The position numbers were made by a program, and so were the translations under genes. A DNA stretch of 32,741 nt from an uncultured Candidatus Saccharibacteria bacterium (lineage in GTDB: Bacteria; Patescibacteriota; Minisyncoccia; Sungbacterales; HO2-52-23): the NCBI GenBank assembly GCA_964357005.1, contig CAYHJX010000002.1, forward strand, positions 1 to 32,741. The letters run 5' to 3'. The notes under the pieces were generated by a model. That model was not told where the DNA came from and did not search any database. It worked only from the letters and a program-made list of their open reading frames with translations. Positions 17,808 to 32,518 of the stretch are shown here, in pieces. Positions within the stretch are counted from its first letter, which is position 1. The number at the start of each line of letters is the position of its first letter.

Positions 17808-18563
17808 TCAAGAAAAAAACTCATTAGGGTTTTCTTTCCACCTCTCCCAAAGTTTCTCTGCAATAAAGAAATCAATCGGAGCATCTATGTCAATCGCGCG
17901 CGCCTGCGGAATCACGTGATACTTCACCCGCTCGCCGGTAAGAGAGTTAAAATCTTTTATCACCCGTGTCCAACAAGCAATGACATTCGCCCGGAAATAT
18001 GCTTTCGCATAATTTTGACGGAGACCCGGAGTAACATCGCGACTGCTCTCGGTGATATAGGTGACAAGGCGCGCGCCACCCCCGCCGTCATCAATAATCT
18101 TCATGGCTTTATGGGGATGCTGGCGCGCTTCGGCAACAACAAGCGAAGAATGCGTATCTGTATCTTCAATAAGCCGCCCGATACACTGGTCAATATCGCC
18201 TGATGTCTGGAACGGAGTCGTCGGCACAAGGCGAAGAACGATGTCAGGCGCATACCCTTCATTTTTCTCAAGCCATCCGAGCGCATGGATAATATATTCA
18301 AGATCCGTCGAGTGGTCGCCGGCAATCTCTTTGGGGCGCAAAAAAGGAACCTCTGCTCCATACCGCCTCGCGATCGCGGCATATTTCTCGGAATCAGTCG
18401 AAACGATTACGCGATTCACGTACTGAGAATTTCGCGCGGCTTCAATAATCCACGCCATGAGGGGTTTGCCCCCAAGTTCTTTTATATTTTTATCAGGCAC
18501 CCCCCGTGAACCGGAACGCGCGCCAACAAGAGCCAAAATTTTAAGGTGGAGATTTCTATCCAT
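17808..18563 (-). CDS. Acylneuraminate (CMP-nonulosonate/ulosonate) cytidylyltransferase family, copy 1
   Basis: 251-aa ORF. Motifs: ALVGARSGSRGVPDKNIKELGGKPLMAWIIEAA..VIVSTDSEKYAAIARRYGAEVPFLRPKEIAGDHS, the CTP_transf_3 signature. There is no C-terminal esterase domain. Confidence 0.85.
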   Translation of the reverse strand: MDRNLHLKILALVGARSGSRGVPDKNIKELGGKPLMAWIIEAARNSQYVNRVIVSTDSEKYAAIARRYGAEVPFLRPKEIAGDHSTDLEYIIHALGWLEKNEGYAPDIVLRLVPTTPFQTSGDIDQCIGRLIEDTDTHSSLVVAEARQHPHKAMKIIDDGGGGARLVTYITESSRDVTPGLRQNYAKAYFRANVIACWTRVIKDFNSLTGERVKYHVIPQARAIDIDAPIDFFIAEKLWERWKENPNEFFS

Positions 18564-18614
18564 ACATTATATAACGATAAAACCGCATTCCTCGTTTTTT
18601 GGATGGCCCGGGAA

Positions 18615-19967
18615 TCAAATAAGCGAGTTGAGTGCGGCAAATACGCGCTCACCTGTTTTTCCGTCAATCGGCCCGACGAGATCCGATACGATCTGGGATC
18701 TCCCCTCTTTATGAAGCGCAGGATCGTGAAGATATCCCGTAACGGCATAGATCAATTCTGATTCAGTTTTGACCCTCCATACGCCTCCGGTCTTCTGGAC
18801 ATAGAGATAATGGGTCGTATGGTCAAGCGCAAACGAAAGACGGTTATGAAGAGGAACTTTCAAGTCGTCGGCTCCATTAAATCCAACAAGGACAACCGGC
18901 CTATTGAAAATTGCGGACTCAAGGGACATTGTAGATCCTAAATTTATGTTTACATCGGTCCAGCGCACAAGATTTAAAAGAAGCTTCATGTCTTCTTTTT
19001 GATACGTAAAGTTTTTTCCAAAATCGAGTATAGGCACTCCTTCGATCTTCTTGTCCGAACCCAAGGGATCAGTCGGATGCGCGCGCACCGCGAGAAGCGC
19101 ATGAGAAAACAACCCGCGCTCGCTTGCGCGCATAAGCATTTCAAGATGATCGGTATATGTTTCCTCGGCGAGAACAACCGTGGGAAGGCCTCCCGTATAA
19201 TACACAATCCACTTCTTTGTGGGGTCAAGTCCGATCATGCGCGCGGTTTCTTCCTTTGTCATGTGCCATGAAGAATCCCGATAGTGGGAAAACTGCGCAA
19301 ATCCGACTACCCGTATGCGCTCAGGAGAAACATCGTTCCACATGATTGCTTCGCGGCGCATAATTTCGTTTTGTACCAAGAGGATGTTGGGAATGATCCG
19401 CAAGAGCAATTTTGTGCTGAAATTGTCCCAGCTCCGCACCATGCCGACCGATGGAATACCCCTCCGTTTTGCCTGCTTTAAAAATATAGTATCCTCTTCA
19501 ATCATGAGCGACGGGGCAAATACCACATCGGGCCGATACCGATCAAAGTAGATCGCCCACACGCGATCTTCAAAAAAGAATCGGTATTCGATGAATCGCA
19601 GTATTTCCCGCCACACCTTTAGATGACCGAGAAACCAACAAAGACGCCTTCCCATAAACCCGGAAAAAGAACCCCCGCTCCGGTACGTTGCGAGCTGGCG
19701 AATCCACATGGATTCAGTCGGAATACTTGCAAGCGCGATCATGCGAAATATTTTTTTTGCGACTTGCCGATCCATTCCGAAATCCGGAACCGGTTCAACA
19801 ATACAGCGCTCATTCGCAAAATCTCTCCGATGGGTTTCCAAACTGTCTGGAGATACAAATACCACGAGCCGCACCGCAGGATCGTTCTTCACCAAGGAAT
19901 AAAAATCGCCCCGCAGGAAGTTTTTTACCTCCACATTATGAGGCGCGTTCAGAAAAAATGTCTTCAT
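18615..19967 (-). CDS. Unassigned GT-B-like protein, paralogue A of a three-member family (TagF / NeuC / sialyltransferase-like motifs)
   Basis: I trimmed the start to ATG 19967 (MKTFFLNAPH...), 4 nt after the NeuB-like stop. It is collinear with 24063..25433 and 26150..27547. Shared blocks: FDRYRPDVVF, AKRRGIPSVGMVRSWDNFS, LLVQNE, VVGF, GLDPTKK, RAHP (His codon 19077-19079), LGSTMSLESA, GPIDGKTGERV. Confidence 0.6.
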   Translation of the reverse strand: MKTFFLNAPHNVEVKNFLRGDFYSLVKNDPAVRLVVFVSPDSLETHRRDFANERCIVEPVPDFGMDRQVAKKIFRMIALASIPTESMWIRQLATYRSGGSFSGFMGRRLCWFLGHLKVWREILRFIEYRFFFEDRVWAIYFDRYRPDVVFAPSLMIEEDTIFLKQAKRRGIPSVGMVRSWDNFSTKLLLRIIPNILLVQNEIMRREAIMWNDVSPERIRVVGFAQFSHYRDSSWHMTKEETARMIGLDPTKKWIVYYTGGLPTVVLAEETYTDHLEMLMRASERGLFSHALLAVRAHPTDPLGSDKKIEGVPILDFGKNFTYQKEDMKLLLNLVRWTDVNINLGSTMSLESAIFNRPVVLVGFNGADDLKVPLHNRLSFALDHTTHYLYVQKTGGVWRVKTESELIYAVTGYLHDPALHKEGRSQIVSDLVGPIDGKTGERVFAALNSLI

Positions 19968-19971
19968 GCCA

Positions 19972-21069
19972 CTAGCGAGGCCAGTTGAGAGCGTCTTCCG
20001 GCAGATGGGTATCTTCTTCAATGTCTGCCTGCGCGACGCGACCAATCACATCATAGATCAAACTTGGTTTGATACCGTGACCCGGTCCTTTTACCGCAAG
20101 AAGATCGGCCGTGATTACTGTCCCGATGGGAATTCTTGTCCGCGCCACAATGCTTTTTGCGAGTTTCTCGCGAAGCGGTTTCAGCTCCGAATAAAATATC
20201 TTCTCTCCCGATCCTTTAATCTTCTCAACCATCCGAATCGACGCCACCAGCTCTTTGAATTGATGTGGTTCAAGCGATGCCGCGTGGTCCGATCCTTTCA
20301 TTGTTTTATCGAGGGTCAAATGTCTCTCGACAATCTGGGCGCTTCGGGAGACCGCAACGAGCGTGGGCAAAAGTCCCATTTCATGTCCGGAATATCCGAC
20401 TGGAAGAGGAGTAAACCGTTCGCGAAGCGCGCCCATAAAGCGGACGTCAATCTTATCGTCCGGACACGGATATAATGAAACACAGTGAAAAATAATAAGG
20501 CGATTATTGTGCCGCAAAATCGCGCCAACAGCATCATCAATCTCGTCAAGCGTACTCATGCCGGTCGACAGAAGAACCGGCTTCCCTTTTTTCGAAACAT
20601 ACTCGAGAAGCGGAACATTAATGACATCAGCTGAAGGAATCTTATACGCATCAACACCCAACCGCTCCATGAAATCGGCGCTCTTCGGGTCCCACACGCT
20701 TGCAAAAAAAAGAATCCCTCGCTCTTCGGCATAGCGCTTCAATTCCCGGTAGTCCGACTCTGAAAATTCAAGCTTATTTCGATGCTCTCCGTACGTGGGA
20801 GCAAATGCGTTAGGAGAGGCATAGGGCTTTTCTAATCCCTCTTTCGTTAAAATTTCATCGGTCGTCCGCTTCTGGAATTTTACCGCATCCGCGCCAGCAT
20901 CCTTTGCTGCACCAATAAGCTGCTTCGCAATAGCGACATCCCCATTGTGATTGATGCCAACTTCCGCTATGACAAATACCGGCTCCCCGGGTCCGACGTA
21001 CTGCGTTCCTATTTTTACCTTTGGAGGAAGACCTCGAAGGATTGTGTGTATTTTTTCCCTGATATTCAT
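19972..21069 (-). CDS. NeuB-family nonulosonate synthase with SAF domain; resembles the sugar-phosphate-condensing (animal NANS / KDN-9-P synthase) type
   Basis: 365-aa ORF. Motifs: PVFVIAEVGINHNGDVAIAKQLIGAAKDAGADAVKFQKR, then EKPYASPNAFAPTYGEHRNKLEFSESDYRELKRYAEERGILFFAS..GKPVLLSTGMS..VGYSGHE..VERHLTLDKTMKGSDHAASLEP. As far as I recall, these blocks track human NANS nearly column for column. The C-terminal SAF-like part reads KSIVARTRIPIGTVIT. Confidence 0.88.
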   Translation of the reverse strand: MNIREKIHTILRGLPPKVKIGTQYVGPGEPVFVIAEVGINHNGDVAIAKQLIGAAKDAGADAVKFQKRTTDEILTKEGLEKPYASPNAFAPTYGEHRNKLEFSESDYRELKRYAEERGILFFASVWDPKSADFMERLGVDAYKIPSADVINVPLLEYVSKKGKPVLLSTGMSTLDEIDDAVGAILRHNNRLIIFHCVSLYPCPDDKIDVRFMGALRERFTPLPVGYSGHEMGLLPTLVAVSRSAQIVERHLTLDKTMKGSDHAASLEPHQFKELVASIRMVEKIKGSGEKIFYSELKPLREKLAKSIVARTRIPIGTVITADLLAVKGPGHGIKPSLIYDVIGRVAQADIEEDTHLPEDALNWPR

Positions 21070-21178
21070 GCTTTGGTTTTCTGCTCTTGTATAATAAAAC
21101 AGAGGGCGCAGAGAAAAGGTTTTCGGTGGCGCTTATTCAGCATGCATGTGCGCCTTCTCATGCATACGCTATACGCTC

Positions 21179-21763
21179 CTATTCATTTATTTTAGCCAAA
21201 AGCCGCAGCCCGTCCACAATGGTACGCGAATCATTCAATGCATTGTGCGGAGGGCGGACAAGCGCTTCCCCAAACGCGGTTACAATCGTGCCGCTTGTAT
21301 AGGAATACGCCGGAATTCCTCGCGCATCGAACAGAGCACGTATATCTTTGAATCGCATACGATCAAATGGAAATGGGATTTCACAAAGCCGGCAATTTTC
21401 CTCCAACACTTCGGCATCTGATCCGAACGAATAAAGATCATGCGTTCCTGCCCAGGAAAAAAATCGTGTTATCGCATCAGAAAAATCAACGCCTTCGTGA
21501 TCAATTGTATGCTGCGTAATACCGGTAAGACGAGAAAAATAATCTGAAAGTTCTGGATTTCTTTTTGGTTTTATAAAGACATCAAACGAGGCCTTTTCTG
21601 AATAGACCCGGGTATCAAGAAGTACTGCGCCGATCTGGACAATCTCACGGTATTCCCCGGGCCTCTTCCATTTCGCTTCCCGACTGCCTTCCCATGCAGT
21701 ATACTCCGTGTCAAAAACGACAATAGTCGGAGATGAAAAAAGGAGAGCGGGCGTCATTCTCAC
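21179..21763 (-). CDS. DEDDh 3'-5' exonuclease domain protein (KapD / ERI-1-like)
   Basis: 194-aa ORF. Exo I is VVFDTEYT (D-x-E). Then EIVQIGAV. The Exo II-like block is YSFGSDAEVLEENC. Exo III is HNALNDSRTI (H-x4-D). The start is either GTG 21763 or ATG 21757. Confidence 0.7.
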   Translation of the reverse strand: MRMTPALLFSSPTIVVFDTEYTAWEGSREAKWKRPGEYREIVQIGAVLLDTRVYSEKASFDVFIKPKRNPELSDYFSRLTGITQHTIDHEGVDFSDAITRFFSWAGTHDLYSFGSDAEVLEENCRLCEIPFPFDRMRFKDIRALFDARGIPAYSYTSGTIVTAFGEALVRPPHNALNDSRTIVDGLRLLAKINE

Positions 21764-21772
21764 ACAAGGGTA

Positions 21773-22339
21773 TTAGCGAAGCGAAAGAGTAAGAACATCA
21801 ACCCCTTTTGCTTCAAGAATCACATTTGCAAGATCACGAATTGCGCCGTCTCCTCCGTTTCGCTTTGCTATGAAGTGAACTCGCTTTTTTATGGTGTCTT
21901 CGGCCTGCTGTGGAGCCGCGGCAAGTCCGACTTTTCCGAGAATCTCATAGTCAGAAAGATCATCGCCCATATATGCACATTCGTCCCAGAGAATTCCATT
22001 CGCCTCAAGCCACGCGCCGAGAGAAACGACTTTATCTTTACCCTGCGGACCAGTAAAAATTCCCACCGGAGGCCAGCGGCCTTCACGAACCGACGGAAGC
22101 TCATTTAATTTCTTTCCTACTGCCTCGACAAAACCGGTTTTCTCGCCGCTCACAAACGCAATGAACACTCCCGCGTCTCGAAGAAGCGAAATTCCTTGTC
22201 CGTCAACGTGGCTCCTTTCTTTCAGCACCTCGCCCCGATCAGGATCCATAAACACCCTTCCGGTAAAAAGCACACCGTCGCCATCAAACGCAACTGCTCG
22301 AATTTTTTTTGCACGCCTAGTAAGCTCTACGCTTGCCAT
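21773..22339 (-). CDS. HAD-IIIA phosphatase of the KdsC type (ulosonate/nonulosonate-phosphate phosphatase)
   Basis: 188-aa ORF. Motifs: AVAFDGDGVLF (D-x-D nucleophile motif), HVDGQGISLLRDAGVFIAFVSGEK, GPQGKDKV, AYMGDDLSDYEILGKVGLAAAPQQAED. These are the four HAD motifs in KdsC order. It overlaps the upstream cytidylyltransferase gene by 13 nt. Confidence 0.85.
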   Translation of the reverse strand: MASVELTRRAKKIRAVAFDGDGVLFTGRVFMDPDRGEVLKERSHVDGQGISLLRDAGVFIAFVSGEKTGFVEAVGKKLNELPSVREGRWPPVGIFTGPQGKDKVVSLGAWLEANGILWDECAYMGDDLSDYEILGKVGLAAAPQQAEDTIKKRVHFIAKRNGGDGAIRDLANVILEAKGVDVLTLSLR

Positions 22340-23097
22340 GATTCTTTTCCTTTTTCTTGTAAAGATCGAATCACTTCTTCAGCCCATCGAAGCTCTTTTA
22401 TCGAATCAATGTCAATATCGCGCCACTCCTGAAATACCAAAGGTAAAATCCTAGTTCCACTCATGGAATTTCTTTTTACAATTACTTCGGGCCGGACAAC
22501 ATCAACATACCCTGAATGCCGATGCACTTTTGGAAGGAGCTGCCGAGGCATATTAAACGCCTCCGGGTACTTCTGAAATACGTCCGGATACACGCTTGTC
22601 AAAAGCGGTTTCAGAAATTTTTCTCCTTCATCCAGCATATACATTTTAAACGGAGTATGGAGCGGAGAGCACACCGAACGCACTGACGTCGCATCAGGAT
22701 TTTCCAAAAGCAGTTGAATTCCTGTATCGATATCCGCAGATGATTTAAGAGGCGTTGTCGGACGGAGATGAACCACCGCATCTGGCTCGTATCCTTCTTT
22801 CTCTTTAAGAAATGTAAGCGCATGCTGAAACACCGGCAAATCAGGAGTCGAGTCCTGGGCTAATTCTTTGGGGCGCATAAAAGGCACTTCCACGTCCAAT
22901 TTCCGCGCTATACTGGCAATCTTTTCATTGTCGGTTGAAATAATCAAGCGCGAAATAAGCCGCGAATGCTGTGCGGCCATAACCGTGTAGTATAGAAGTG
23001 GCTTTCCCGCGCAAGGATAAATATTTTTCTCCGGAATCGATTTCGAATCCCCCCGCGCAAGAATTACCCCAAGGACTTCTTTCCTTTTCCCCGCCAT
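22327..23097 (-). CDS. Acylneuraminate cytidylyltransferase family, copy 2
   Basis: 256-aa ORF. Motifs: GVILARGDSKSIPEKNIYPCAGKPLLYYTVMAA..LIISTDNEKIASIARKLDVEVPFMRPKELAQDST. It is collinear with copy 1 at 17808..18563 but clearly diverged from it. Confidence 0.85.
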   Translation of the reverse strand: MAGKRKEVLGVILARGDSKSIPEKNIYPCAGKPLLYYTVMAAQHSRLISRLIISTDNEKIASIARKLDVEVPFMRPKELAQDSTPDLPVFQHALTFLKEKEGYEPDAVVHLRPTTPLKSSADIDTGIQLLLENPDATSVRSVCSPLHTPFKMYMLDEGEKFLKPLLTSVYPDVFQKYPEAFNMPRQLLPKVHRHSGYVDVVRPEVIVKRNSMSGTRILPLVFQEWRDIDIDSIKELRWAEEVIRSLQEKGKESWQA

Positions 23098-23144
23098 ATA
23101 TACCTATAACGTGGAAAATAAAAAGAAAGTCAATAATCGAGAGA

Positions 23145-23170
23145 CCAAAAAAGCGAGCCAAGGGCCCGCT
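23145..23170 (-). terminator. Candidate intrinsic terminator directly after the 264-aa membrane protein gene
   Basis: The minus-strand transcript reads AGCGGGCC-CTT-GGCTCGCT: an 8-bp GC-rich stem with 1 mismatch (plus-strand arms 23152-23159 and 23163-23170). TTTTTGG follows. The hairpin begins at the base after the TAG stop (23171-23173). Confidence 0.45.
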
Positions 23171-23965
23171 CTAGATTACACGTAAAACCTTAAACTGTTC
23201 GTAATACTCATACATGCCCCAGTACCAAAGATAGATCGCGTTTCCGACAAGCACATTGAATCCGAGACCGGCGTTACGCAGCCACCATTCGAAACTTCCA
23301 AATCCGCCGTGAAGCATAATGCTTGCCCAAAACCATATAACAAGTGCGTTTGAAAAAATACCCTTAAGGAAAAAAGATCGAGGATAGTGCACGCCCTTCG
23401 TACGGATGGTTTCCAGGTCGAGAAGAATCCAGCGAAATACAATCACAGTAGCCACAATCGCGCTTATCACCTCAAACCCCCAACCAGGGCCAAATAGCGA
23501 ATAATCCAGTTGGCGCAAAAATCCGATAAGAAGCCCAAGGAAAACCGCACACGCTGAAAAAAGAATTCGTGCGATTACTGCACTCGCTGTGAGTTTCCAG
23601 TATGACCTCAATCCCTCGCCGATCTGCCATCCGATAACCGAGAGAAGCAGGAGTTGCATCCAAAACCAACTCTGGCTTACGCCGCCGATCATCCATGCGC
23701 CAACATTAATAGAAAGAAGCAACGCCCAATGGATGAAATCGTATATGCGAGCTTCGATATTTACCTTCTCGCCATCACGAATGGCAAGTAACAAATCGAA
23801 CTGTCCTGAAAGAATCACGAGAATACCAACCGGAGGAATCCAAAACGCAATCGCATGAAAAGTAACGAAACTCCATATCTTCTCAACAGAAACGATGACG
23901 TATATACAAAGGACAATAAGCCCACTCCAGTATGCAGAGCTGAGCACGCGTTTTACTGTTTGCAC
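23171..23965 (-). CDS. Hypothetical polytopic membrane protein (about 8 helices), no family recognised
   Basis: 264-aa ORF with a GTG start at 23965, preceded by GGGAGGGG. It is Trp-rich and hydrophobic (…WFWMQLLLLSVIGWQIG…, …ALVIWFWASIMLHGGFGSFEWW…). I could not find a diagnostic motif. Confidence 0.6.
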   Translation of the reverse strand: MQTVKRVLSSAYWSGLIVLCIYVIVSVEKIWSFVTFHAIAFWIPPVGILVILSGQFDLLLAIRDGEKVNIEARIYDFIHWALLLSINVGAWMIGGVSQSWFWMQLLLLSVIGWQIGEGLRSYWKLTASAVIARILFSACAVFLGLLIGFLRQLDYSLFGPGWGFEVISAIVATVIVFRWILLDLETIRTKGVHYPRSFFLKGIFSNALVIWFWASIMLHGGFGSFEWWLRNAGLGFNVLVGNAIYLWYWGMYEYYEQFKVLRVI

Positions 23966-23994
23966 GAGGCCCCTCCCGGAAACGAACTGAAAGC

Positions 23995-24023
23995 ATCATA
24001 TAATAAAACTATCTAGCCGTCAA
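23995..24023 (-). promoter_or_regulatory. Candidate internal sigma70-type promoter for the membrane protein gene
   Basis: On the minus strand: TTGACG (24023-24018), 17-nt spacer, TATGAT (24000-23995). It lies in the 97-bp gap, one of the largest within the gene train, about 30 nt upstream of GTG 23965. Confidence 0.4.
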
Positions 24024-24062
24024 TGGACAACAAAAATACAACCGGATCGCCATTCGAATATC

Positions 24063-25433
24063 TCATTTTTGAATAAGCGTATGTACTGCATCGGCAATAC
24101 GCTTCCCCGAATCTCCTTCGTAAGGAGCAAGAAATTCTTTTATGAGGCACGTGCGCCCGTCTGCATCCTTCCGGGGGTTCTCCAAATATGCGTTGATTGC
24201 TTCCGCAAGTGCGCCTTCGCTGTCTGCGGCCCGAACACCGCCGGTTGCCATCATGGCTTCATAGTGCGTGTAGTGATGCCGGAACCGCCGCGCCGATATC
24301 CAATAGTTCACGCGTGTTTTTTCAAATGCGGCTGATAGTGCCGGCTTGCCGAGCGCAACCGCATCAAGCGCCATGGTGGATCCGGACGTAATCACCATCT
24401 CGCTATGAACAATTGAATTTACCAGATGCTTCATTTCCTCTTCCCCCATCTCCCAACTATCCACCTGGGAGGAAAGATATACTGCATTGCGATCAGGTAT
24501 GACGTGGCGGAATGACTTCATCCGCTCGAGCGGGCTTTGAAACGCGGGATGCGCGCGAAATACCATAACAAGATCCTGCGGAATTTTTTTTGATTCGACA
24601 AGCGCCTCAAACACATCCGCAATCTCGCCCTCTTTTGGGAATAAAAAGTCGCCCATAGCGCCAAACAAAATCATTCGTTTTTTCGGATCAATGCCGAGTT
24701 TTTGCAAAAATGCATCACGCGGCAAAATCCATTCGTTCCTGAAATACCAATCATTTTGCGGAAATCCGACCACTTCAAACATCTCCGGCATCAAAAAATG
24801 ATATGTCATTCCCATTCGCTTTAAATACTCATTTTGCAAAAGCATTCGGTCGGGCACTACGCGCAAAAACCCGTGCGACGTGAAATTATCCCATCCGCGG
24901 AGCATCGCAATTGTAGGAATTTTGCGACGCTTGGCCTCGCGAAGCATCGCGACATCAATTTCCGGATGAATTGCAACGGTTGAAAACAAAAGATCGGGCC
25001 CATAGCGATCAAAAAGCGCCCGCACTGTCGGAAGCTGCTTTCGCATAAGTTCTATCCGGCGAACAAGCACTTGAATAGTTTTTGATCTGCCGAATGCGTG
25101 CCACAAGAATCGCTTGAACATAAGCGCGAGAAAACTTCCGCCGTCATGTCTCTGGCGCATCTGATTGAAGGTTGTTGTTCCGGTTTGGAATGCGTTTCGC
25201 GAAATAAATGCAAGCGCTTTCTCGAGAAATCCCGGCGCGACATACGGAAGTTCTTCAACCGTTATATCCTTCCCGAAAAATTCTTTTGCATACTGCTCCT
25301 TTTTCAAAGATGCGGTAACCAGTACAATGCGGAAATTTCTTTCCGCATTGATGTAATTCCAAAAAGATCCGCGAAGCACGTTTCGTGCGGCAGACGCCTC
25401 TGGAACAGTAATAAAGATTGTTTTCTTCGGCAC
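24063..25433 (-). CDS. Unassigned GT-B-like protein, paralogue B
   Basis: 456-aa ORF with a GTG start 4 nt after the upstream stop. Blocks: FDRYGPDLLF, AKRRKIPTIAMLRGWDNFTS, LLQNEYL, VVGFPQNDWY, GIDPKKRMILFGAMG, FRAHP (His codon 24549-24551), ITSGSTMALDAVALGKP, YLENPRKDADGR, APYEGDSGKRI. Confidence 0.6.
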   Translation of the reverse strand: MPKKTIFITVPEASAARNVLRGSFWNYINAERNFRIVLVTASLKKEQYAKEFFGKDITVEELPYVAPGFLEKALAFISRNAFQTGTTTFNQMRQRHDGGSFLALMFKRFLWHAFGRSKTIQVLVRRIELMRKQLPTVRALFDRYGPDLLFSTVAIHPEIDVAMLREAKRRKIPTIAMLRGWDNFTSHGFLRVVPDRMLLQNEYLKRMGMTYHFLMPEMFEVVGFPQNDWYFRNEWILPRDAFLQKLGIDPKKRMILFGAMGDFLFPKEGEIADVFEALVESKKIPQDLVMVFRAHPAFQSPLERMKSFRHVIPDRNAVYLSSQVDSWEMGEEEMKHLVNSIVHSEMVITSGSTMALDAVALGKPALSAAFEKTRVNYWISARRFRHHYTHYEAMMATGGVRAADSEGALAEAINAYLENPRKDADGRTCLIKEFLAPYEGDSGKRIADAVHTLIQK

Positions 25434-25437
25434 AAAG

Positions 25438-26121
25438 TCAGCTCTTCTTGATTACAAAATATTTTCTTGCTTTTTCGTCATAATCAATGCGGTACGGCGT
25501 CCCTCGAAAGAATTCATCAATTGCTTTTGTGGCTCCGGGCCATCGGGGACTTTTGTATTCGTCGAACAAGATTACGCCCCCGTTGGCAACTTGTGGAAAG
25601 AATTTCTTAAGCACCGCGCGATACGACTCATAGAGATCCACATCAATATGCAACAGTGCAATGGGGCCGCCATCGTACGAATCAACCGTATTCTCAAAAA
25701 ATCCCTTAACGAGCCTCACGTTCTTTGTGAGAAATACGGGGGAAATCCTCGCGGTCATCAAAATCTGCTTAATATCGTCAATTGATGTCCCTGACCATTC
25801 TCCTTTCTTTGGATTACGGACACTATCGTCTTCTTTTGCTGGTTCGGGAAAACCCTCAAACGAATCAAAACCCCACACCATGCGATTCCGCCCCTCCATT
25901 TCAGCAAACGAAGAAAGGAATAAAAATGTTGTCCCTCTCCCTACTCCGCATTCAACAATAGCCCCATCGACAGCTCGGATATTCTCATACATCTTTCCCA
26001 TATACAGAATCTGCGTGATTCGCCGTACCGTAAGGGGAATTTCCTTTTCGGAACTTTTTTTCACATCATATCCAAATGCACCAATAACTTTCTTGATTAT
26101 CTTTTTTAGCATCATACGCAC
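25438..26121 (-). CDS. TylF / macrocin-O-methyltransferase family SAM-dependent (sugar) O-methyltransferase
   Basis: 227-aa ORF. Motifs: GAIVECGVGRGTTFLFLSS, VWGFDSFEGFPEP, LLHIDVDLYESYRAVLKKFFPQVANGGVILFDEY. These are the metal-binding D-x-D and SAM motifs typical of the TylF/NovP class. Confidence 0.8.
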   Translation of the reverse strand: MRMMLKKIIKKVIGAFGYDVKKSSEKEIPLTVRRITQILYMGKMYENIRAVDGAIVECGVGRGTTFLFLSSFAEMEGRNRMVWGFDSFEGFPEPAKEDDSVRNPKKGEWSGTSIDDIKQILMTARISPVFLTKNVRLVKGFFENTVDSYDGGPIALLHIDVDLYESYRAVLKKFFPQVANGGVILFDEYKSPRWPGATKAIDEFFRGTPYRIDYDEKARKYFVIKKS

Positions 26122-26149
26122 ATCGTATTGTTACATGGAAACCGCATCA

Positions 26150-27547
26150 TTACACCAATGAAAGAATAAAATGTGTCAGCCGCTCGGACGATTTTCCATC
26201 AAAGGGCTCGATAAACCGCTCTCGGATGCAATCCCGCCCCCCGAGATCCTTTTGGGGATTTTCCAAGTAGGTACGTATTGCATCCGCTAACTCACGCTCG
26301 GAATGCGGGCGCCGCATGCCGCCGCAGTTTCCCACTTCTTCCCAGTCAAAACACATGCCTCCATGAACTTTCGCTAAATAACGCCCGTAGGGAAACTTTT
26401 TTCTCCCTTCAAACGCAAACGCTATGACCGGCTTTCCAAACGCAATAGCATCGAGAATAATCGTTCCCGATGTGGTAAGCAACAACTCGCTATGATACAA
26501 AGAATTTATTTGGTGAGAAATATCAGACAAATCTTCTTTTGGTTGTCCGGCGCGCGGGATCTTGCTTGCGCGCACTTCATCCGCAACCACATGGCGCAAT
26601 GGCTTCAGACGGCTCAACGAAAAATTGTAATACGGGTGGTTACGAAAAATAAATACGAGATCGGATGGCAACACGCCCTTCTCGACCATATCATCGAGCA
26701 TCTCGGCAAGAGAAACCTCCAACTCATGCAAAATTCCGCCTACCGCGCCAAACAGTATAACCCGTTTCGAAGAATCTATTCCAAATCGTTTTAAAAATTC
26801 ATCACGGGGCGCCAATAGCTCTTTATCCGCATACCAATCATAGTGCGGAAAACCAGTGATAACAACTCTGTCCGCGGGGAAAAAATTATATTGCACGGCC
26901 ATTTCCTTAACATACATGCTGGGAACAACCATATAATCCGGATGCATCAACATGAAACCAATGTTGCTTAACGCGTCCCACCCGCGAATACCCGCAATCG
27001 TCTTAATTCTTCTGCGTTTAGCTTCACAAAGCACAGGTACGTCATATGACGTACTCGCAATATTGGTACTTAAAACAAGTACGGGATTATATCTATCAAA
27101 AATTTCTATAATATACTTATAAGCAGGAATATGCGACACTCGCTCGCGCACAATTCTCTGAATTATCCTCGCAAGGGGCCGCCAAGTTCCAAACGTATAG
27201 GCAATGATCCTGTGCAACACTATACGATAGAGCGGCACACGGGAAATGTGACGCTCTACAAGGCGATGCCATGCGCGACTCAACTTTTGATGAAACGCCG
27301 AGCGGGAAAGAGAAATTAACATCTCAAAATATTTGGAGGTTTTCACTCGGGGAATAGCGACTATGTCTGCACCTGCGCCCCCGAATTCCGATCGGTATCC
27401 GGCTTCTTCCGCTTTCGAGACAATCAAAACGACTTTCACATCCGGGCGTTTTGCAAGCTCTGCCACAAAACCGCTCCGCAAAAAATATCGCGGTATCATC
27501 GGTCCTCCTGCAGTAGAAATAAAAATAACCTTTTTTTGTGTATCCAT
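26150..27547 (-). CDS. Unassigned GT-B-like protein, paralogue C
   Basis: 465-aa ORF with ATG 4 nt after the ABC gene stop. Blocks: FDRYNPVLVLS, AKRRRIKTIAGIRGWDALS, ITGFPHYDWY, GIDSSKRVILFGAVG, FRNHP (His codon 26636-26638), TTSGTIILDAIAFGKP, YLENPQKDLGGR, EPFDGKSSERL. Confidence 0.6.
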   Translation of the reverse strand: MDTQKKVIFISTAGGPMIPRYFLRSGFVAELAKRPDVKVVLIVSKAEEAGYRSEFGGAGADIVAIPRVKTSKYFEMLISLSRSAFHQKLSRAWHRLVERHISRVPLYRIVLHRIIAYTFGTWRPLARIIQRIVRERVSHIPAYKYIIEIFDRYNPVLVLSTNIASTSYDVPVLCEAKRRRIKTIAGIRGWDALSNIGFMLMHPDYMVVPSMYVKEMAVQYNFFPADRVVITGFPHYDWYADKELLAPRDEFLKRFGIDSSKRVILFGAVGGILHELEVSLAEMLDDMVEKGVLPSDLVFIFRNHPYYNFSLSRLKPLRHVVADEVRASKIPRAGQPKEDLSDISHQINSLYHSELLLTTSGTIILDAIAFGKPVIAFAFEGRKKFPYGRYLAKVHGGMCFDWEEVGNCGGMRRPHSERELADAIRTYLENPQKDLGGRDCIRERFIEPFDGKSSERLTHFILSLV

Positions 27548-27551
27548 TTCT

Positions 27552-29354
27552 TTACACTGATAATGCGGATCTTTTCACATGATATGCTTTATAAAAATTT
27601 GATTGTGGATCCTCAAGGAGCTTTCGCGGATTACCTTCTTCTATAATCCTGCCGCCGTGAAGCACGTATACCCTGTCAGCATCCAGTACCGTTGATAAAC
27701 GGTGCGCAATCATAATGACCGTTACTTTCCCATGAAGCTGCTGAAGCGCTTTCTGAATGAGTGATTCTGATTCATTATCCAAAGCGCTCGTTGCCTCATC
27801 AAGGACAAGAATCTCGGGGTGATGCGCAAGCTCCCGTGCAAGCACAATCCGTTGTCGCTGTCCCGCCGAAAGCATAATACCACGATCTCCCACCATAGTA
27901 TCAAGACCATCGGGAAGCGACTGAACATATTCGTAGATATGCGCTTCTTTTACGGCATTCTCGATATCGGTTTCTCCAATCCCTGTACGATAAAAAAGAA
28001 TATTGTTTCTGATAGTGTCATTCAAGAGAAAAATATCCTGCGGTACATATCCAAGATGCATCCGCCATTCCCGTACCCCTATGGAAGAAATATCTTTGCC
28101 GTCAATCATGATTTCTCCCTTCTCGGGAGTAAAAAGACGAAGCAAAAGATCAACTAATGATGTCTTTCCTACGCCTGAAGGGCCCACCACTGCAATCGTA
28201 TCTCCCTTATGAACGGTTATCTGAATTCCTGAAAGCACCGGTGGTCCACTGTGATAAGAAAAAAATAAATCTCGGAATTCAAGCTCATTTTGAAACGAGA
28301 AGGGTTCGTCTCCAAGATCATGTTCTCGATATTTTCTCAATGAATCCATAAGATAAATAATATCTGCGGTATGGGGCAGCAAATCAGAGATGGTATGGAG
28401 CGATCGCTGTATTGACTCCACGTCAACAAAAATTTTATGTATCAAATAAATAGTTGCGATAAGTGCTGCAAGATTAAATCCGGGAGTTCTATAGGACAAC
28501 ACGAAAATGACCGTGATGAAAACAAAACTTATCGGCTGGATGAATGCAGCGCTTGACGCCCGGAGCATGTAGCTTCTTATATTGAGCCGGCGCAGTATCG
28601 CAAGCAATTCCGCGGTCTTTTCCCGGACCCCATTTTCAACTGCTGCAGCCTTTACCACTTTCATGCCGATGACATGCTCACTTAAGTGTTGTGAGGCGTC
28701 TTTTTCAACCTGGTTCACGCGGTACGCCGCCGCTTTTGCAATTTTTCCAAGCGGGAGAAGCAAAATAAGGAGGAGTATTCCCCCGCCCATAGTGATAAGC
28801 GTGATATTCGGCGAAATATTCACTGAAACCAAAAAATACATACATACCGTCGTAAGGGCTAAAATAGCGTGTCCAAACGACATGAAAAGCGCGGCGCCCT
28901 GATCCACACCTCGGATAAAAGCGCTCTGGATATATCCGAGTTTCTGCCGCAATAAAAATCGCCATTCTGCTACGAGCGCCAACGAAAAAAGCTCCTCCCG
29001 CATATGGCGCTTATAGTCAGTAACAATTTTAGTGCGCACGTAGCTAAAAAGAAGAATGGCACATGCTTTAAAAATAAAAAGTGCTACCATAAAACTTAAA
29101 AGTGATGTCACGCTCAATGGAAACGGAAGGTATCCGTTGATAGCGATGATTAATCGAGACTAGAAATTATCGCTTGCGTGGACGCTTCCTCCAGCGATGA
29201 GGGAAAACAAAGGGATCATCGCGCTAATGCTCACACTTTCGAAAAGTCCGCCTAAAAACCCCAATACCACCATAACTGCAATCCTCCCCTTATATCTCCC
29301 GAAGGCGCGATAAAATATATAGAAATTTTTTGACGCTTTAATCCGCTCAATCAT
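27552..29354 (-). pseudogene. MsbA-type ABC exporter (fused TMD-NBD) interrupted by a single in-frame TAG at 29160-29162
   Basis: Track ORFs 29160..29375 (TM1: GRIAVMVVLGFLGGLFESVSISAMIPLF) and 27552..29117 (TM2-6 plus NBD: Walker A GPSGVGKTS, signature LSAGQRQR, Walker B ILVLDEATSALD, H-loop IAHRLS) are in the same frame. Only TAG separates them, followed by 14 sense codons (SRLIIAINGYLPFP). The joined length of about 600 aa is typical. The likely start is ATG 29354. Confidence 0.7.
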
Positions 29355-30711
29355 GATTTTTGAGAAAATGATCAAGAAAACGAAAAAATCTTTCGGCGTT
29401 TTTTCCGTCTAATGCTGAATATTTTTCTTCGATGAATTTTCGCAGATTTGAATTTTTCTTCCACCTCTGTTGTTCTCCGGGAATCTTCGTACCATAGTCG
29501 AGATACTTATGTAACATACCAACAAGCATCTCTCTGTTATAAGCAATCTCGTGAAAAGTACTTGTTGCGGGACTTAACAACGCTGCCTCTTCCATGCGGC
29601 GTCCCGAACTCAAACCAAGATCGCTCGCCTCCGCCCACCACGGCACCACAACAGCAACATCTGCAATAAGCGCATCGAGGCAAGACGTTGAATTAAACCC
29701 TACAAGCACCCGGGGACGCTTTGCGAGAAAATACTCCATTGGTCCGGTTACTACCTGAAAATCAGGAAATGACCTTTTGATAGTAACTATCTCGCGTACG
29801 TCTCGACATTTTATCGTGATATGCGTTCGCAGAATTTCATCCCTATAGAGCGCTTGAAGGACCTCGCGCCAAAGAGTTGCTGCGCCGTACGAAGGATCTT
29901 GAAATGCTGCAACAAGAATAAATGGCTCTTCTTGATTTTGACCCGCCTCGGGCGACTCGGAAATTTCAACAAGACGGTCAACGCGTGGACAGCCAGTTAC
30001 GAACGATTGCGATGCGGTTACAGCACGAGCAGCAATAAAAACATCCTTTGCGTACTCGTTATAAAATAATACCGCATCGCCATCATAGCGAAACTGCGCT
30101 TTTGTGTATATTTCCACTGTTTCCTCTTTATAGAATTTCGAGTAGATGATTGATTCCTTATAGAGCGAAACGAACACTCCGCCGCACTTTTGTATGGCAA
30201 AAACCCATGGATATTCCTGAGCATAATCAATGAGTCCGGTCAAAATAACGCGGACACGAATACCTGTTTGCTTCTCGATAAAATACATTATGCCTTCATA
30301 TATGCGTACCATTCGCTCTGTAAATTCGCGATAGTGATTCCGATGGGCGTAAAATCCCGTCTGAACAGCAAATCCAGCAGGCCACACGGCTTTCGTAAGA
30401 AGTGCACGGACGAAACTGGGGTACGACAGTATGGTATACGAAAGGTGATGCGCTTTTTGGTATTGCCGCAAAGCATCTTTGTCATCGTTAAAAATACGCC
30501 GATCCATTGCCAAAAGAACGACCCCAGAAGACGGACGCGCGCACTCTTCACGATTATTAGAAATAACAAGAAAGGCAATGAGTCGAGAGATTGCGGAATC
30601 AAGATGCAACCACCATAAAATCCGCACTCCGTACACCAAAAGGGTCTGTTTTGCAACGGGACGCAACAGACCCTTGAAAAAAGAAATGACTCTTGTAGAT
30701 ATGCGTTTCAC
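29347..30711 (-). CDS. Hypothetical protein, distant relative of paralogues A-C (GT-B-like) lacking the H-P motif
   Basis: 454-aa ORF with a GTG start at 30711. Its blocks occur in the same order as in A-C: VILTGLIDYAQEYPWVFAIQKCGGVFVSLYKE corresponds to ..AKRR.IP...R.WDN. DAVLFYNEYAKDVF...FVTGCPRVDRL corresponds to LLQNE...VVGFPQND. VLVGFNSTSCLDALIADVAVVV corresponds to ITSGSTMALDAVALGKP. Confidence 0.45.
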   Translation of the reverse strand: MKRISTRVISFFKGLLRPVAKQTLLVYGVRILWWLHLDSAISRLIAFLVISNNREECARPSSGVVLLAMDRRIFNDDKDALRQYQKAHHLSYTILSYPSFVRALLTKAVWPAGFAVQTGFYAHRNHYREFTERMVRIYEGIMYFIEKQTGIRVRVILTGLIDYAQEYPWVFAIQKCGGVFVSLYKESIIYSKFYKEETVEIYTKAQFRYDGDAVLFYNEYAKDVFIAARAVTASQSFVTGCPRVDRLVEISESPEAGQNQEEPFILVAAFQDPSYGAATLWREVLQALYRDEILRTHITIKCRDVREIVTIKRSFPDFQVVTGPMEYFLAKRPRVLVGFNSTSCLDALIADVAVVVPWWAEASDLGLSSGRRMEEAALLSPATSTFHEIAYNREMLVGMLHKYLDYGTKIPGEQQRWKKNSNLRKFIEEKYSALDGKNAERFFRFLDHFLKNHD

Positions 30712-30726
30712 TAAAATCGCGAAAGC

Positions 30727-31800
30727 CTAGACGATTAAATCCCATGCAAGGGGCGTGCCGCGTTCAATATCTTTTGCAGCGGCTTTCCCGATAATTTCTT
30801 CATAGTGCTTGGTATGAAGGCCGTTTGCGGGACGAATGGAGCGCGCGTTTTCTTTCGTGAATACCTCTCCTTTTTTCATATCCTTCACGACAAACAGTGA
30901 TCTTCTAAAACGCGTATTGTATCGTTCCTGTTCAGTCGCCGGTCCGTAGTGCGGCGCGCCGAGCATTGTTTCGTGCTTTCGTATGGTAGCAACCATTTCC
31001 TGTAACTCCTGTGGTTCGATGGAAAACTTCGCGTCAGGACCGCCGTCGCTCCTTCGCAGAATAAAATGCTTTTCAATAATTGCGGCGCCGTGCGCCGCCG
31101 CAATAATAGGAATCTCAATGCCGCCATTATTATCAGAAAACCCCGCCACCACGCCGAATCGTTCCTCAATATCCCGCATTGTTTTTAAATGCATAACCGA
31201 AGGATCGGGGTCTCCGGTGTAACCTGTCACACAATGCAAAATCGCAATTTCTTTGGCGCCGTTTTCACGCAGTGTTTTCAGCGCAAGTTCAATATCTTCA
31301 AGCGATGCGTATCCGATAGACATAATAACCGGCTTCCCGGTCCGTGCGATTTTTCTTAAAAGGGTTACGTCATTCACTTCGTATGACGCAACTTTGTAGC
31401 AAGGGACATCCATTGATTCAAGCAGATCAACTGCCGTCTCATCAAAGGGTGTTGAAAATAAAAAAATCCCTATTTCGTCGGCAATTTTTTTTAGTTTTGG
31501 CTGCCAATCCCACGGTGTATATGCTGTTTGATACAGCTCGTATAGCGTCTTCCCTTTCCAATCGTCAGGATTATCCTTCCCGCCAACCAAAAACCATTCT
31601 TTATTGGAATCAATCGTTATTGTATCCGGCGTATATGTTTGCAGTTTAACTGCGTCTGCCCCTGCTTCTTTTGCGGCCTTAATCATTGCGACCGCCTCAT
31701 CATATTTTTGATGGTGATTTGCAGATACCTCTGCCACAATAAAGCAAGGTTTCCCTTGTCCAATCTCGCGCCCGCCAATGTGAATCAGGGATGTTTTCAT
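30727..31800 (-). CDS. pseI: NeuB-family nonulosonate synthase, pseudaminic acid synthase (PseI)-like
   Basis: 357-aa ORF. Motifs: KPCFIVAEVSANHHQKYDEAVAMIKAAKEAGADAVKLQTYTPDTITIDS..LYELYQTAYTPWDW..FSTPFDETAVDLLE..YKVASYEVND..GFSDNN..IIEKHFIL..DAKFSIEP..RSLFVVKDMKKGEVFTKENARSIRPANGLH. It follows my recollection of Campylobacter PseI block by block, including the ...QTYTPD... and ...RS[IV]RP..GL motifs. Confidence 0.82.
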   Translation of the reverse strand: MKTSLIHIGGREIGQGKPCFIVAEVSANHHQKYDEAVAMIKAAKEAGADAVKLQTYTPDTITIDSNKEWFLVGGKDNPDDWKGKTLYELYQTAYTPWDWQPKLKKIADEIGIFLFSTPFDETAVDLLESMDVPCYKVASYEVNDVTLLRKIARTGKPVIMSIGYASLEDIELALKTLRENGAKEIAILHCVTGYTGDPDPSVMHLKTMRDIEERFGVVAGFSDNNGGIEIPIIAAAHGAAIIEKHFILRRSDGGPDAKFSIEPQELQEMVATIRKHETMLGAPHYGPATEQERYNTRFRRSLFVVKDMKKGEVFTKENARSIRPANGLHTKHYEEIIGKAAAKDIERGTPLAWDLIV

Positions 31801-31810
31801 AATTCATAAA

Positions 31811-32518
31811 CTATCTCCGCCAATATACCAGCTCAAACGCTTCCGCAAGAGGAAACCCCGACTGTCCCCCTCGTACTTTCGCGAGCGCCTCAAGATATTC
31901 TTTTGATCGAGGGTGGGGAAACACCCGAATCTCCCCGGTATACTCTTTCATGGCGTCCCATTTTTTTTGAAATAATTTCTTATCAAGAGCAACAAATACA
32001 TTAGGGCTAAAAATGTCCTTACCGAAACTCCATTCTGTTGAAGAAGGTATTTCAGACGCAAATACTTGCTCAAGCGGCAGAGAATGTGCGGGTAGTGGTC
32101 GAACTGCGGCCTCAATAGCTTCACGAGTCCTTCGATGGTCAATATTTACATCAGAATAATGATGCGTATAAATAATGGTCGGTTTCAATTCCTGCATAAC
32201 CTCTTCAATCGTATGCACAATATCTAAAAGAGACACAGAATCGAACTTGTTATCGGGAAAATCTTTTAAAATAAGACGCTCAACTCCCAGTGCCTTATTT
32301 GCACGCCTCGCGTCCTTTTTTAGTTGCTCCAAAATCCTGGTCTTTTCAATTTCCGAAAGCCCGGCCCGCGCCCGCACTCCCTCCCCAAGAATCAAAACCC
32401 AGACACGGTCTCCCGCGGCCGCGTGCTTTGCAATAGTGCCTCCGCATCCCAAAACCTCATCATCGGGATGCGCCACAACCACAAGAATTCTTTTTTTTCG
32501 ATCAGCTTTTTTCTTCAT
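31811..32518 (-). CDS. PIG-L / LmbE family N-acetyl-sugar deacetylase
   Basis: 235-aa ORF. ILVVVAHPDDEVLGCGGTIAKH is the zinc-binding A-H-P-D-D-E signature. A second block, HHYSDVNIDHRRT, follows. Confidence 0.85.
   Translation of the reverse strand: MKKKADRKKRILVVVAHPDDEVLGCGGTIAKHAAAGDRVWVLILGEGVRARAGLSEIEKTRILEQLKKDARRANKALGVERLILKDFPDNKFDSVSLLDIVHTIEEVMQELKPTIIYTHHYSDVNIDHRRTREAIEAAVRPLPAHSLPLEQVFASEIPSSTEWSFGKDIFSPNVFVALDKKLFQKKWDAMKEYTGEIRVFPHPRSKEYLEALAKVRGGQSGFPLAEAFELVYWRR

What the first reader, a model, noticed from the sequence alone, without database searches (positions are those of the whole stretch)
27552..29375. Single in-frame amber codon splits the only exporter gene of the locus
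The two track ORFs are in the same reading frame (29375-29117 = 258 nt). One TAG at 29160-29162 separates them. The 14 codons after it (SRLIIAINGYLPFP) continue a sensible TM1-TM2 loop into the rest of the ABC transmembrane domain. Without the upstream 65-70 residues the exporter would lack TM1.

TAG is a genuine stop elsewhere in the window. It terminates the NANS-like gene at 19972-19974, the membrane protein gene at 23171-23173 and the PseI-like gene at 30727-30729. Global TAG reassignment is therefore unlikely.

Remaining options are a very recent nonsense mutation (no other decay is visible), a sequencing or assembly error, a population polymorphism or phase-type switch of glycan export, or local read-through.
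Basis: seen in the sequence. Interest (0 to 1): 0.6.

Follow-up and report, generated by a model that had tools for sequence, protein, structure and literature searches.

The report
Lone stop codon in exporter gene
One TAG stop codon does interrupt an otherwise perfect lipid/glycan exporter gene in this small groundwater bacterial genome, but it looks like an ordinary one-base error or fresh mutation, not a special way of reading the code.

Summary
On the minus strand, one TAG (29162-29160) splits a 600-codon MsbA/PglK-type ABC half-transporter gene. The likely start is ATG 29354 and the stop is TAA 27552-27554.

- **Gene normally unbroken:** the Pfam membrane domain runs across the stop. Seven database homologues and 12 orthologues in related genomes are uninterrupted (about 590-630 aa).
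- **Position of the stop:** in an AlphaFold model it sits in the outer loop between TM1 (helix 9-53) and TM2 (82-127).
- **No other decay:** the protein keeps 79 of 85 positions that are invariant in homologues, within the range of intact homologues.
- **TAG is not recoded:** it ends 135 of 651 long ORFs. RF1 is present, and no tRNA has a CUA anticodon. No repeat at the site would allow phase switching.
- **Same defect elsewhere in this genome:** two other genes of this 865-kb, 111-contig genome assembled from a metagenome (MAG) carry the same kind of clean in-frame stop. One is the single-copy murA (TAA, where close homologues have Glu). The other is a BcrAD-type ATPase (TAG). No frameshift-split gene turned up in a comparable screen.

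I therefore favour a base-call or consensus error, or a rare allele caught by a low-coverage assembly (about 0.55). A genuine recent null allele comes next (about 0.33). Leaky read-through or re-initiation is a minor option.

Interest is low.

The parts
27552..29354 (-). Whole interrupted gene: a 600-codon fused TMD-NBD ABC exporter (type IV, MsbA/PglK-like half-transporter). Starts at ATG 29354 and ends at TAA 27552-27554.
   Evidence: Pfam ABC_membrane 47-288 and ABC_tran 374-523 on the read-through product. 12 orthologues and 7 homologues of 568-628 aa align end to end. Foldseek best matches are MsbA, TM 0.73-0.77.
29160..29162 (-). In-frame TAG (codon 65). Context is TTC TAG TCT: -1 base C, +4 base T.
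   Evidence: The homologous column is Ile or Val in 10 of 11 homologues. TTG (Leu) to TAG is the simplest one-base path; this is inference.
29163..29354 (-). 5' fragment of 64 codons. It encodes the N-terminal elbow and TM1 (model helix 9-53) plus the start of the outer loop.
   Evidence: AlphaFold2 model, hydropathy. It retains conserved L31, G32, E39, P48 and S51. This 64-aa product is on record only from this contig.
27552..29159 (-). 3' part: rest of the outer loop, TM2-TM6 and the ATPase domain, with Walker A GPSGVGKT, signature LSAGQ, Walker B ILVLDE and H-loop AHRL. The first in-frame start codons after the TAG are TTG 29117, GTG 29111 and ATG 29090.
   Evidence: The 512-aa product from ATG 29090 is on record only from this contig.
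29347..30711 (-). Upstream 454-aa gene with no Pfam match. Its TGA stop overlaps the exporter's ATG, consistent with translational coupling. A homologue lies upstream of the exporter in locus L010.
   Evidence: 37% identity over 364 aa in L010.
26150..27547 (-). Downstream TagF-like glycerophosphotransferase (465 aa). It is a conserved neighbour of the exporter in related genomes.
   Evidence: Pfam Glyphos_transf. tblastn finds it directly after the exporter gene in L003, L004, L005, L008, L010 and L011.

Best explanation
The gene is a normal, conserved MsbA/PglK-type ABC half-transporter. It belongs to a surface-glycopolymer gene train containing two NeuB synthases, two CMP-sugar cytidylyltransferases and two TagF-like polymerases.

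The TAG is a single unprogrammed base difference, most simply TTG to TAG. It most likely does not represent the working allele of the population. It is either a base-call or consensus error, or a rare read variant taken up by a low-coverage single-sample short-read assembly.

If the error reading is right, cells make the full 600-aa exporter and nothing unusual happens at this codon.

Shown here: the stop is in the record, the gene is otherwise intact, orthologues are continuous, TAG is an ordinary terminator in this genome, and the same MAG has other clean in-frame stops.

Inferred: that the base is wrong or unrepresentative.
For: (1) No decay besides the stop. 79 of 85 columns invariant in 11 homologues are kept, inside the 1-8% deviation range of intact homologues. 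All ATPase motifs are present.

(2) The same MAG has at least two more single in-frame stops in otherwise intact genes. One is murA at G000:C5:5384-5386 (TAA). The other is a BcrAD_BadFG ATPase at C50:404-406 (TAG). Each has one Pfam domain match running across the stop.

(3) murA is single-copy here and intact in 19 of 19 relatives that have it. A true murA-null dominant genotype is therefore unlikely. Its TAA column is Glu in the four closest homologues, so GAA to TAA is one G-to-T change.

(4) Only substitutions are seen. A comparable screen for frameshift-split genes gave 26 candidates. The eight best were scanned in Pfam and none is a split gene.

(5) The MAG is fragmented: 111 contigs, 7.4% contamination. 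The only independent contig of this population is a 1.6-kb piece named cov_3. The project that this contig's name and sample point to used per-sample metaSPAdes assemblies of Illumina reads (PMC8672522).

(6) Recoding is excluded.
Against: No independent assembly covers the site. The base is therefore neither confirmed nor refuted.

Illumina plus metaSPAdes consensus is usually accurate. Three nonsense errors would imply tens of substitution errors across 865 kb.

Surface-glycan loci are common targets of real loss-of-function. The one independent contig shows a real or apparent structural difference just downstream, at 27097, so strain variation exists in this locus.

My in-frame-stop and frameshift screens are rough and give lower bounds only.
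Confidence: 0.55

Rival explanations
1. Genuine, very recent nonsense mutation carried by this strain, either fixed or at high frequency. The exporter is a fresh pseudogene. Translation ends after 64 residues, and the glycopolymer made by the locus is no longer exported, or is exported by another transporter.
For: The TAG is in the deposited consensus. All orthologues are intact, so this would be a lineage-specific loss. Surface-polysaccharide loci often vary between strains, and contig L001 departs from the window at 27097, inside the next gene. Other ABC half-transporters exist in the genome, for example on C5.
Against: There is no second lesion and no relaxed conservation. The rest of the 20-kb gene train is intact. 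The ABC plus TagF-like module is conserved across the family. The same MAG also shows a stop in its only murA, which is hard to accept as a real dominant genotype and suggests that such stops in this assembly are not trustworthy. No frameshift pseudogenes were found, although real gene decay usually produces them too.
Confidence: 0.33
2. The stop is real but tolerated ('pseudo-pseudogene'). One route is low-level near-cognate read-through of UAG, for example by tRNA-Gln(CUG). The other is termination followed by re-initiation at TTG 29117, GTG 29111 or ATG 29090. Either would give enough full-length or two-piece transporter.
For: In Salmonella pseudogenes, read-through mostly involves UAG and is favoured by C at -1 (PMC9122581). 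Here -1 is C. tRNA-Gln(CUG) is present. Start codons lie 15, 17 and 24 codons after the stop. Most genes of this train lack a Shine-Dalgarno and seem coupled, so re-initiation without one is not excluded.
Against: The +4 base is U, which is rare among read-through cases in that study (12.5%). RF1 is present. Such read-through gives low protein levels. A product starting at 29117 or 29090 lacks TM1, and no orthologue is naturally split. The murA stop is TAA, not UAG.
Confidence: 0.07
3. Programmed recoding: TAG is reassigned or site-specifically decoded (suppressor tRNA, pyrrolysine-like or code-15-like reading) in this organism.
For: Two of the three in-frame stops found in the MAG are TAG.
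Against: TAG terminates 135 of 651 long ORFs. ORFs ending in TAG are not followed by longer open frames than those ending in TAA or TGA (medians 21, 19 and 20 codons). Both NeuB genes end at TAG exactly where their last domain ends. No tRNA with a CUA anticodon was found among about 45 tRNAs. A prfA (RF1) gene is present at 420 bits. The third in-frame stop is TAA.
Confidence: 0.02
4. Phase-variable switch of glycan export (a contingency locus).
For: The locus makes a surface glycopolymer, a class that is often phase-variable in other bacteria (general knowledge).
Against: The site has no homopolymer or short tandem repeat (GATAATTTCTAGTCTCGA). A nonsense substitution is not reversible at high frequency.
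Confidence: 0.02

Closest known systems
MsbA (lipid A-core flippase) and PglK/Wzk (lipid-linked oligosaccharide flippases): type IV ABC exporter half-transporters
   Same: Same architecture: about 600 aa, an N-terminal six-helix membrane domain (PF00664) fused to an ATPase domain (PF00005). The model superposes on MsbA at TM 0.73-0.77 over about 590 columns. PglK is rank 43 with the highest identity, 27%. The gene sits in a glycan-synthesis cluster, as pglK does.
   Different: Sequence identity is only 21-27%. The substrate is unknown. The neighbours are TagF-like polymerases and nonulosonic-acid genes rather than LPS or N-glycosylation genes. In this record the gene is cut by a TAG after TM1.
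Ordinary nonsense pseudogenes, and 'pseudo-pseudogenes' of Salmonella (PMC9122581)
   Same: A single in-frame stop in a gene whose orthologues are intact. UAG with C at -1 is the context most often read through at low level in that study.
   Different: Here the DNA base itself is unverified. It comes from a metagenome bin, not an isolate. The +4 base is U. No expression data exist.
Consensus or base errors in low-coverage short-read metagenome bins
   Same: Isolated substitutions create stops in otherwise perfect, conserved and even essential genes (murA), with no indels, in a fragmented bin with 7% contamination.
   Different: This is not demonstrated here. No reads or coverage values for this contig could be examined.

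Membership tests
Type IV ABC exporter (ABCB/MsbA/PglK-like half-transporter) | ABC transmembrane domain (PF00664) N-terminal to an ABC ATPase domain (PF00005) in one polypeptide | tested here: met
   ABC_membrane 64.6 bits (cut-off 28), ABC_tran 103.8 bits (cut-off 25). This holds only when the TAG is read through.
Type IV ABC exporter (ABCB/MsbA/PglK-like half-transporter) | Walker A, Q-loop, signature LSGGQ-like motif, Walker B and H-loop all present | tested here: met
   GPSGVGKT, LSAGQRQR, ILVLDEATS and AHRL fall in columns invariant across homologues.
Type IV ABC exporter (ABCB/MsbA/PglK-like half-transporter) | Six long TM helices with the domain-swapped exporter fold | tested here: met
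   AlphaFold2 model with mean pLDDT 73. Foldseek gives MsbA E 1.9e-37, TM 0.73/0.76. The dimer and domain swap were not modelled.
Type IV ABC exporter (ABCB/MsbA/PglK-like half-transporter) | Uninterrupted reading frame | tested here: not met
   One TAG at codon 65. All 12 orthologues have none.
Stop-codon reassignment or programmed TAG decoding | TAG not used, or rarely used, as a terminator | tested here: not met
   135 of 651 long ORFs end in TAG. Domain ends coincide with TAG in both NeuB genes.
Stop-codon reassignment or programmed TAG decoding | A tRNA with a CUA anticodon (suppressor or pylT) | tested here: not met
   ARAGORN on the whole MAG found none. The MAG is about 93% complete, so absence is not absolute.
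Stop-codon reassignment or programmed TAG decoding | Loss of release factor 1 | tested here: not met
   prfA match at G000:C11:13484-14509, 420 bits, no internal stops.
Decaying pseudogene | Several lesions and/or relaxed conservation | tested here: not met
   A single lesion. 6 of 85 deviations at invariant columns, within the range of intact homologues.
Phase-variable contingency gene | Simple-sequence repeat or invertible element at the switch site | tested here: not met
   No repeat around 29160-29162.
Naturally split gene (TM1 peptide plus remainder) | The same split conserved in orthologues, with its own start signal | tested here: not met
   0 of 12 orthologues and 0 of 7 homologues are split. 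There is no start codon for 14 codons after the stop and no Shine-Dalgarno.

The most novel reading that the evidence does not exclude
All three in-frame stops of this Sungbacteria-like genome (exporter TAG, BcrAD TAG, murA TAA) are real and fixed. The organism would then live with them because termination is leaky enough, or re-initiation efficient enough, to supply working protein. That would make it a reduced-genome symbiont that tolerates nonsense codons even in its only murA.
Probability: 0.04. Interest if true: 0.6.

Novelty: already known. Interest (0 to 1): 0.12.

Why it matters
It matters mainly for annotation. The gene should be read as one 600-aa MsbA/PglK-type exporter, flagged as 'internal stop, unverified', not as a 64-aa ORF plus a truncated transporter.

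It should not be used as evidence that this bacterium has lost glycan export or reads TAG differently.

The wider point is a caution. This MAG carries several clean nonsense codons, including one in its only murA. Single-codon oddities in it need read support before any biology is built on them.

[quoted passage not shown] It combines two nonulosonic-acid synthases and two TagF-like polymerases with a conserved ABC exporter. That interest does not depend on the stop codon.

Tried and rejected
- **Independent assemblies of the site:**
  - A 56-nt pattern with NNN at the codon found nothing in genome contigs or metagenome contigs.
  - Exact look-ups of the 64-aa, 512-aa and 521-aa products and of the NeuB neighbour found nothing outside this contig.
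  - Six possible one-base 'sense' versions (L, Q, Y, W, K, E) are not on record.
  - A 151-aa N-terminal query found no fragments.
  - The one independent contig (L001) stops 566 nt short of the TAG.
- **Independent copies of murA:** none closer than 72% identity.
- **Strain duplicates inside the MAG:** none.
- **TAG recoding:** rejected.
- **Naturally split gene:** rejected.
- **Phase variation:** rejected, no repeat at the site.
- **Frameshift-split genes as a sign of general decay:** 26 candidates, with the eight best scanned in Pfam. None was split.
- **Earlier scan notes on this genome:** nothing on stops.
Full report
**What is in the sequence.**
On the minus strand the window reads GAT AAT TTC TAG TCT CGA, with the TAG at 29162-29160. 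Upstream of it an open frame runs back to TTG 29375. Downstream the same frame stays open to TAA 27554-27552.

The true start is almost certainly ATG 29354, for two reasons. It overlaps the TGA stop of the upstream 454-aa gene (29349-29347). It also lines up with the N-termini of the homologues: MIERIK here against MLKKIK in the closest one. Read through, the product is 600 aa.

**Is it one gene?**
Yes.
- Pfam gives one ABC_membrane match over residues 47-288, running across the stop at residue 65, plus ABC_tran at 374-523.
- A search of 5.8 billion proteins returned seven homologues of 568-600 aa, at 36-55% identity over the searched N-terminal region, and they align from the first residues onward.
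- A six-frame search of 40 related genomes found clear orthologues in 12. Eleven have open frames of 587-628 aa and one is a 489-aa partial. None has an internal stop. The window's copy is the only one with '1 TAG'.
That scenario was orthologues that begin at the TTG, with a separate small ORF upstream.

**Where the stop falls.**
An AlphaFold2 model was built from the alignment, with TAG read as Leu only for the purpose of folding. Its mean pLDDT is 73. It shows:
- a long first helix at 9-53 (TM1);
- a poorly ordered loop with a short helix at 64-75;
- TM2 at 82-127.

Residue 65 therefore lies in the outer TM1-TM2 loop. A product starting at 29117 or 29090 would lack TM1.

Foldseek places the model with type IV ABC exporters. 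MsbA is best (E 1.9e-37, TM 0.73-0.77). PglK is at rank 43 with the highest identity, 27%. A sequence search of the PDB gives only general ABCB-type matches.

**Context.**
The gene sits in a long minus-strand train that contains:
- a PIG-L deacetylase;
- two NeuB-type nonulosonic-acid synthases and two CMP-sugar cytidylyltransferases;
- two TagF-like glycerophosphotransferases;
- TylF-like, CmcI-like and C-methyltransferases;
- RmlC and RmlD homologues and a GT2 glycosyltransferase.

No other ABC, Wzx or similar exporter domain was found. Two membrane proteins have no family match, at 23171-23965 and 8155-9264.

The pairing of the exporter with a TagF-like gene directly downstream recurs in loci L003, L004, L005, L008, L010 and L011. 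The unknown 454-aa upstream gene has a 37%-identical counterpart in L010. The exporter is therefore a conserved part of a glycopolymer module. By analogy with MsbA and PglK it probably flips or exports a lipid-linked polymer. That role is inferred, not shown.

**Is TAG read differently here?**
No.
- Across the 865-kb genome, 135 of 651 long ORFs end in TAG.
- The open frame that follows a TAG terminator is no longer than after TAA or TGA. Medians are 21, 19 and 20 codons.
For both NeuB genes, the last domain ends 1-4 residues before the TAG.
- ARAGORN finds about 45 tRNAs and none with a CUA anticodon.
- A prfA (RF1) gene is present at 420 bits, and prfB shows its usual internal TGA.
- There is no homopolymer or short repeat at the site, so slipped-strand phase variation is out.

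**Is the gene decaying?**
No. Of 85 alignment columns invariant in 11 homologues, the window's protein keeps 79. Leave-one-out values for the intact homologues range from 1 to 7 deviations, so the window's 6 is ordinary. All ATPase motifs are intact. The change is therefore either very recent or not real.

**Can the base be verified?**
Not with what was open to me.
- A pattern search with NNN at the codon found nothing in two collections.
- The 64-aa and 512-aa products are on record only from this contig. Six one-base 'sense' versions of the full protein are not on record.
- No N-terminal fragments exist in other assemblies.
- One independent contig of the same population is 100% identical to window 27097-28594 but ends 566 nt before the TAG. 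This is L001, from ENA assembly ERZ1292625, named Hain_H41_01um_R1 ... cov_3.
- That name ties the population to the Hainich groundwater study. There, each filter replicate was assembled separately from Illumina reads with metaSPAdes (PMC8672522). That the window's bin comes from the same project is an inference.

**The rest of the genome changes the picture.**
I screened the whole MAG for single stops with long open frames on both sides and no nearby start codon. Of 23 candidates, three are true split genes:
- this exporter;
- murA at G000:C5:5384-5386 (TAA);
- a BcrAD_BadFG ATPase at C50:404-406 (TAG).

In each of the two extra cases, one Pfam domain match runs straight across the stop.

murA is single-copy in this genome. 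It is intact in all 19 relatives that have it. Its TAA column is Glu in the four closest homologues, so one G-to-T change in GAA explains it. A population whose main genotype lacks its only murA is hard to credit.

A matching screen for frameshift-split genes gave 26 candidates. I scanned the eight most gene-like in Pfam. In every case with a recognisable upstream domain, that domain ends before the junction, so none is a split gene.

The pattern is therefore several isolated substitutions to stop codons, of more than one stop type, without indels. They occur in a fragmented bin of 111 contigs with 7.4% contamination, from a population seen at about 3x depth in at least one sample. That fits point noise better than locus-specific biology. 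Point noise here means base-call or consensus errors, or rare reads taken into the path. Both screens are rough and give lower bounds.

**Weighing.**
- Error or unrepresentative allele: about 0.55.
- Genuine fresh null allele: about 0.33. Surface-glycan loci do lose function. L001 departs from the window inside the next gene at 27097, so strain variation or chimerism exists right here.
- Tolerated stop through leaky read-through or re-initiation: about 0.07. UAG with C at -1 is the favoured context in Salmonella pseudogenes, but U at +4 is not (PMC9122581). In-frame starts lie 15-24 codons downstream, and most genes of this train lack a Shine-Dalgarno anyway.
- Programmed recoding and phase variation: about 0.02 each.

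**Verdict.**
However, the feature is ordinary: one unverified nonsense codon in a metagenome bin that contains others like it. The gene should be annotated as a single MsbA/PglK-type exporter with an internal stop pending read support.

Noticed in passing
G000:C5:5384-5386 (minus strand; murA spans about C5:4718-6007): The only murA of the genome carries an in-frame TAA. One EPSP_synthase domain match (19-431) runs across it. 19 relatives have intact murA. The four closest homologues have Glu at that column, so the simplest change is GAA to TAA.
   Followed up: yes
G000:C50:404-406 (plus strand): A BcrAD_BadFG-type ATPase gene is split by an in-frame TAG, with the domain match (90-341) running across the stop. 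This contig has the weakest tetranucleotide fit of the three (0.93), so its membership of the bin is less certain.
   Followed up: partly
window 27097 (L001 positions 1499-1632): The independent contig L001 (Hain_H41_01um_R1, cov 3) is 100% identical to window 27097-28594. It then switches to unrelated sequence with a terminator-like hairpin, about 150 codons into the TagF-like gene. This is either a structural strain variant or a chimeric low-coverage contig.
   Followed up: partly
window 17808-32518: The locus has two NeuB-family synthases (19972-21069 and 30727-31800) and two CMP-sugar cytidylyltransferases (17808-18563 and 22327-23097), next to two TagF-like polymerases. This suggests a teichoic-acid-like polymer carrying nonulosonic acids in a CPR bacterium.
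   Followed up: partly
window 29347-30711 and 18615-20045: Two large soluble proteins (454 and 476 aa) have no Pfam match. The 454-aa protein is conserved directly upstream of the exporter in L010 (37% identity) and its stop overlaps the exporter's start.
   Followed up: partly
G000 genome-wide tRNA scan (contig not recorded): ARAGORN predicts a tRNA-Ile with anticodon TAT in addition to two tRNA-Ile(GAT). No tRNA with a CUA anticodon was found.
   Followed up: no
G000:C3:13264-14268: The RF2-like gene shows one internal TGA, as expected for the well-known programmed +1 frameshift of prfB.
   Followed up: no
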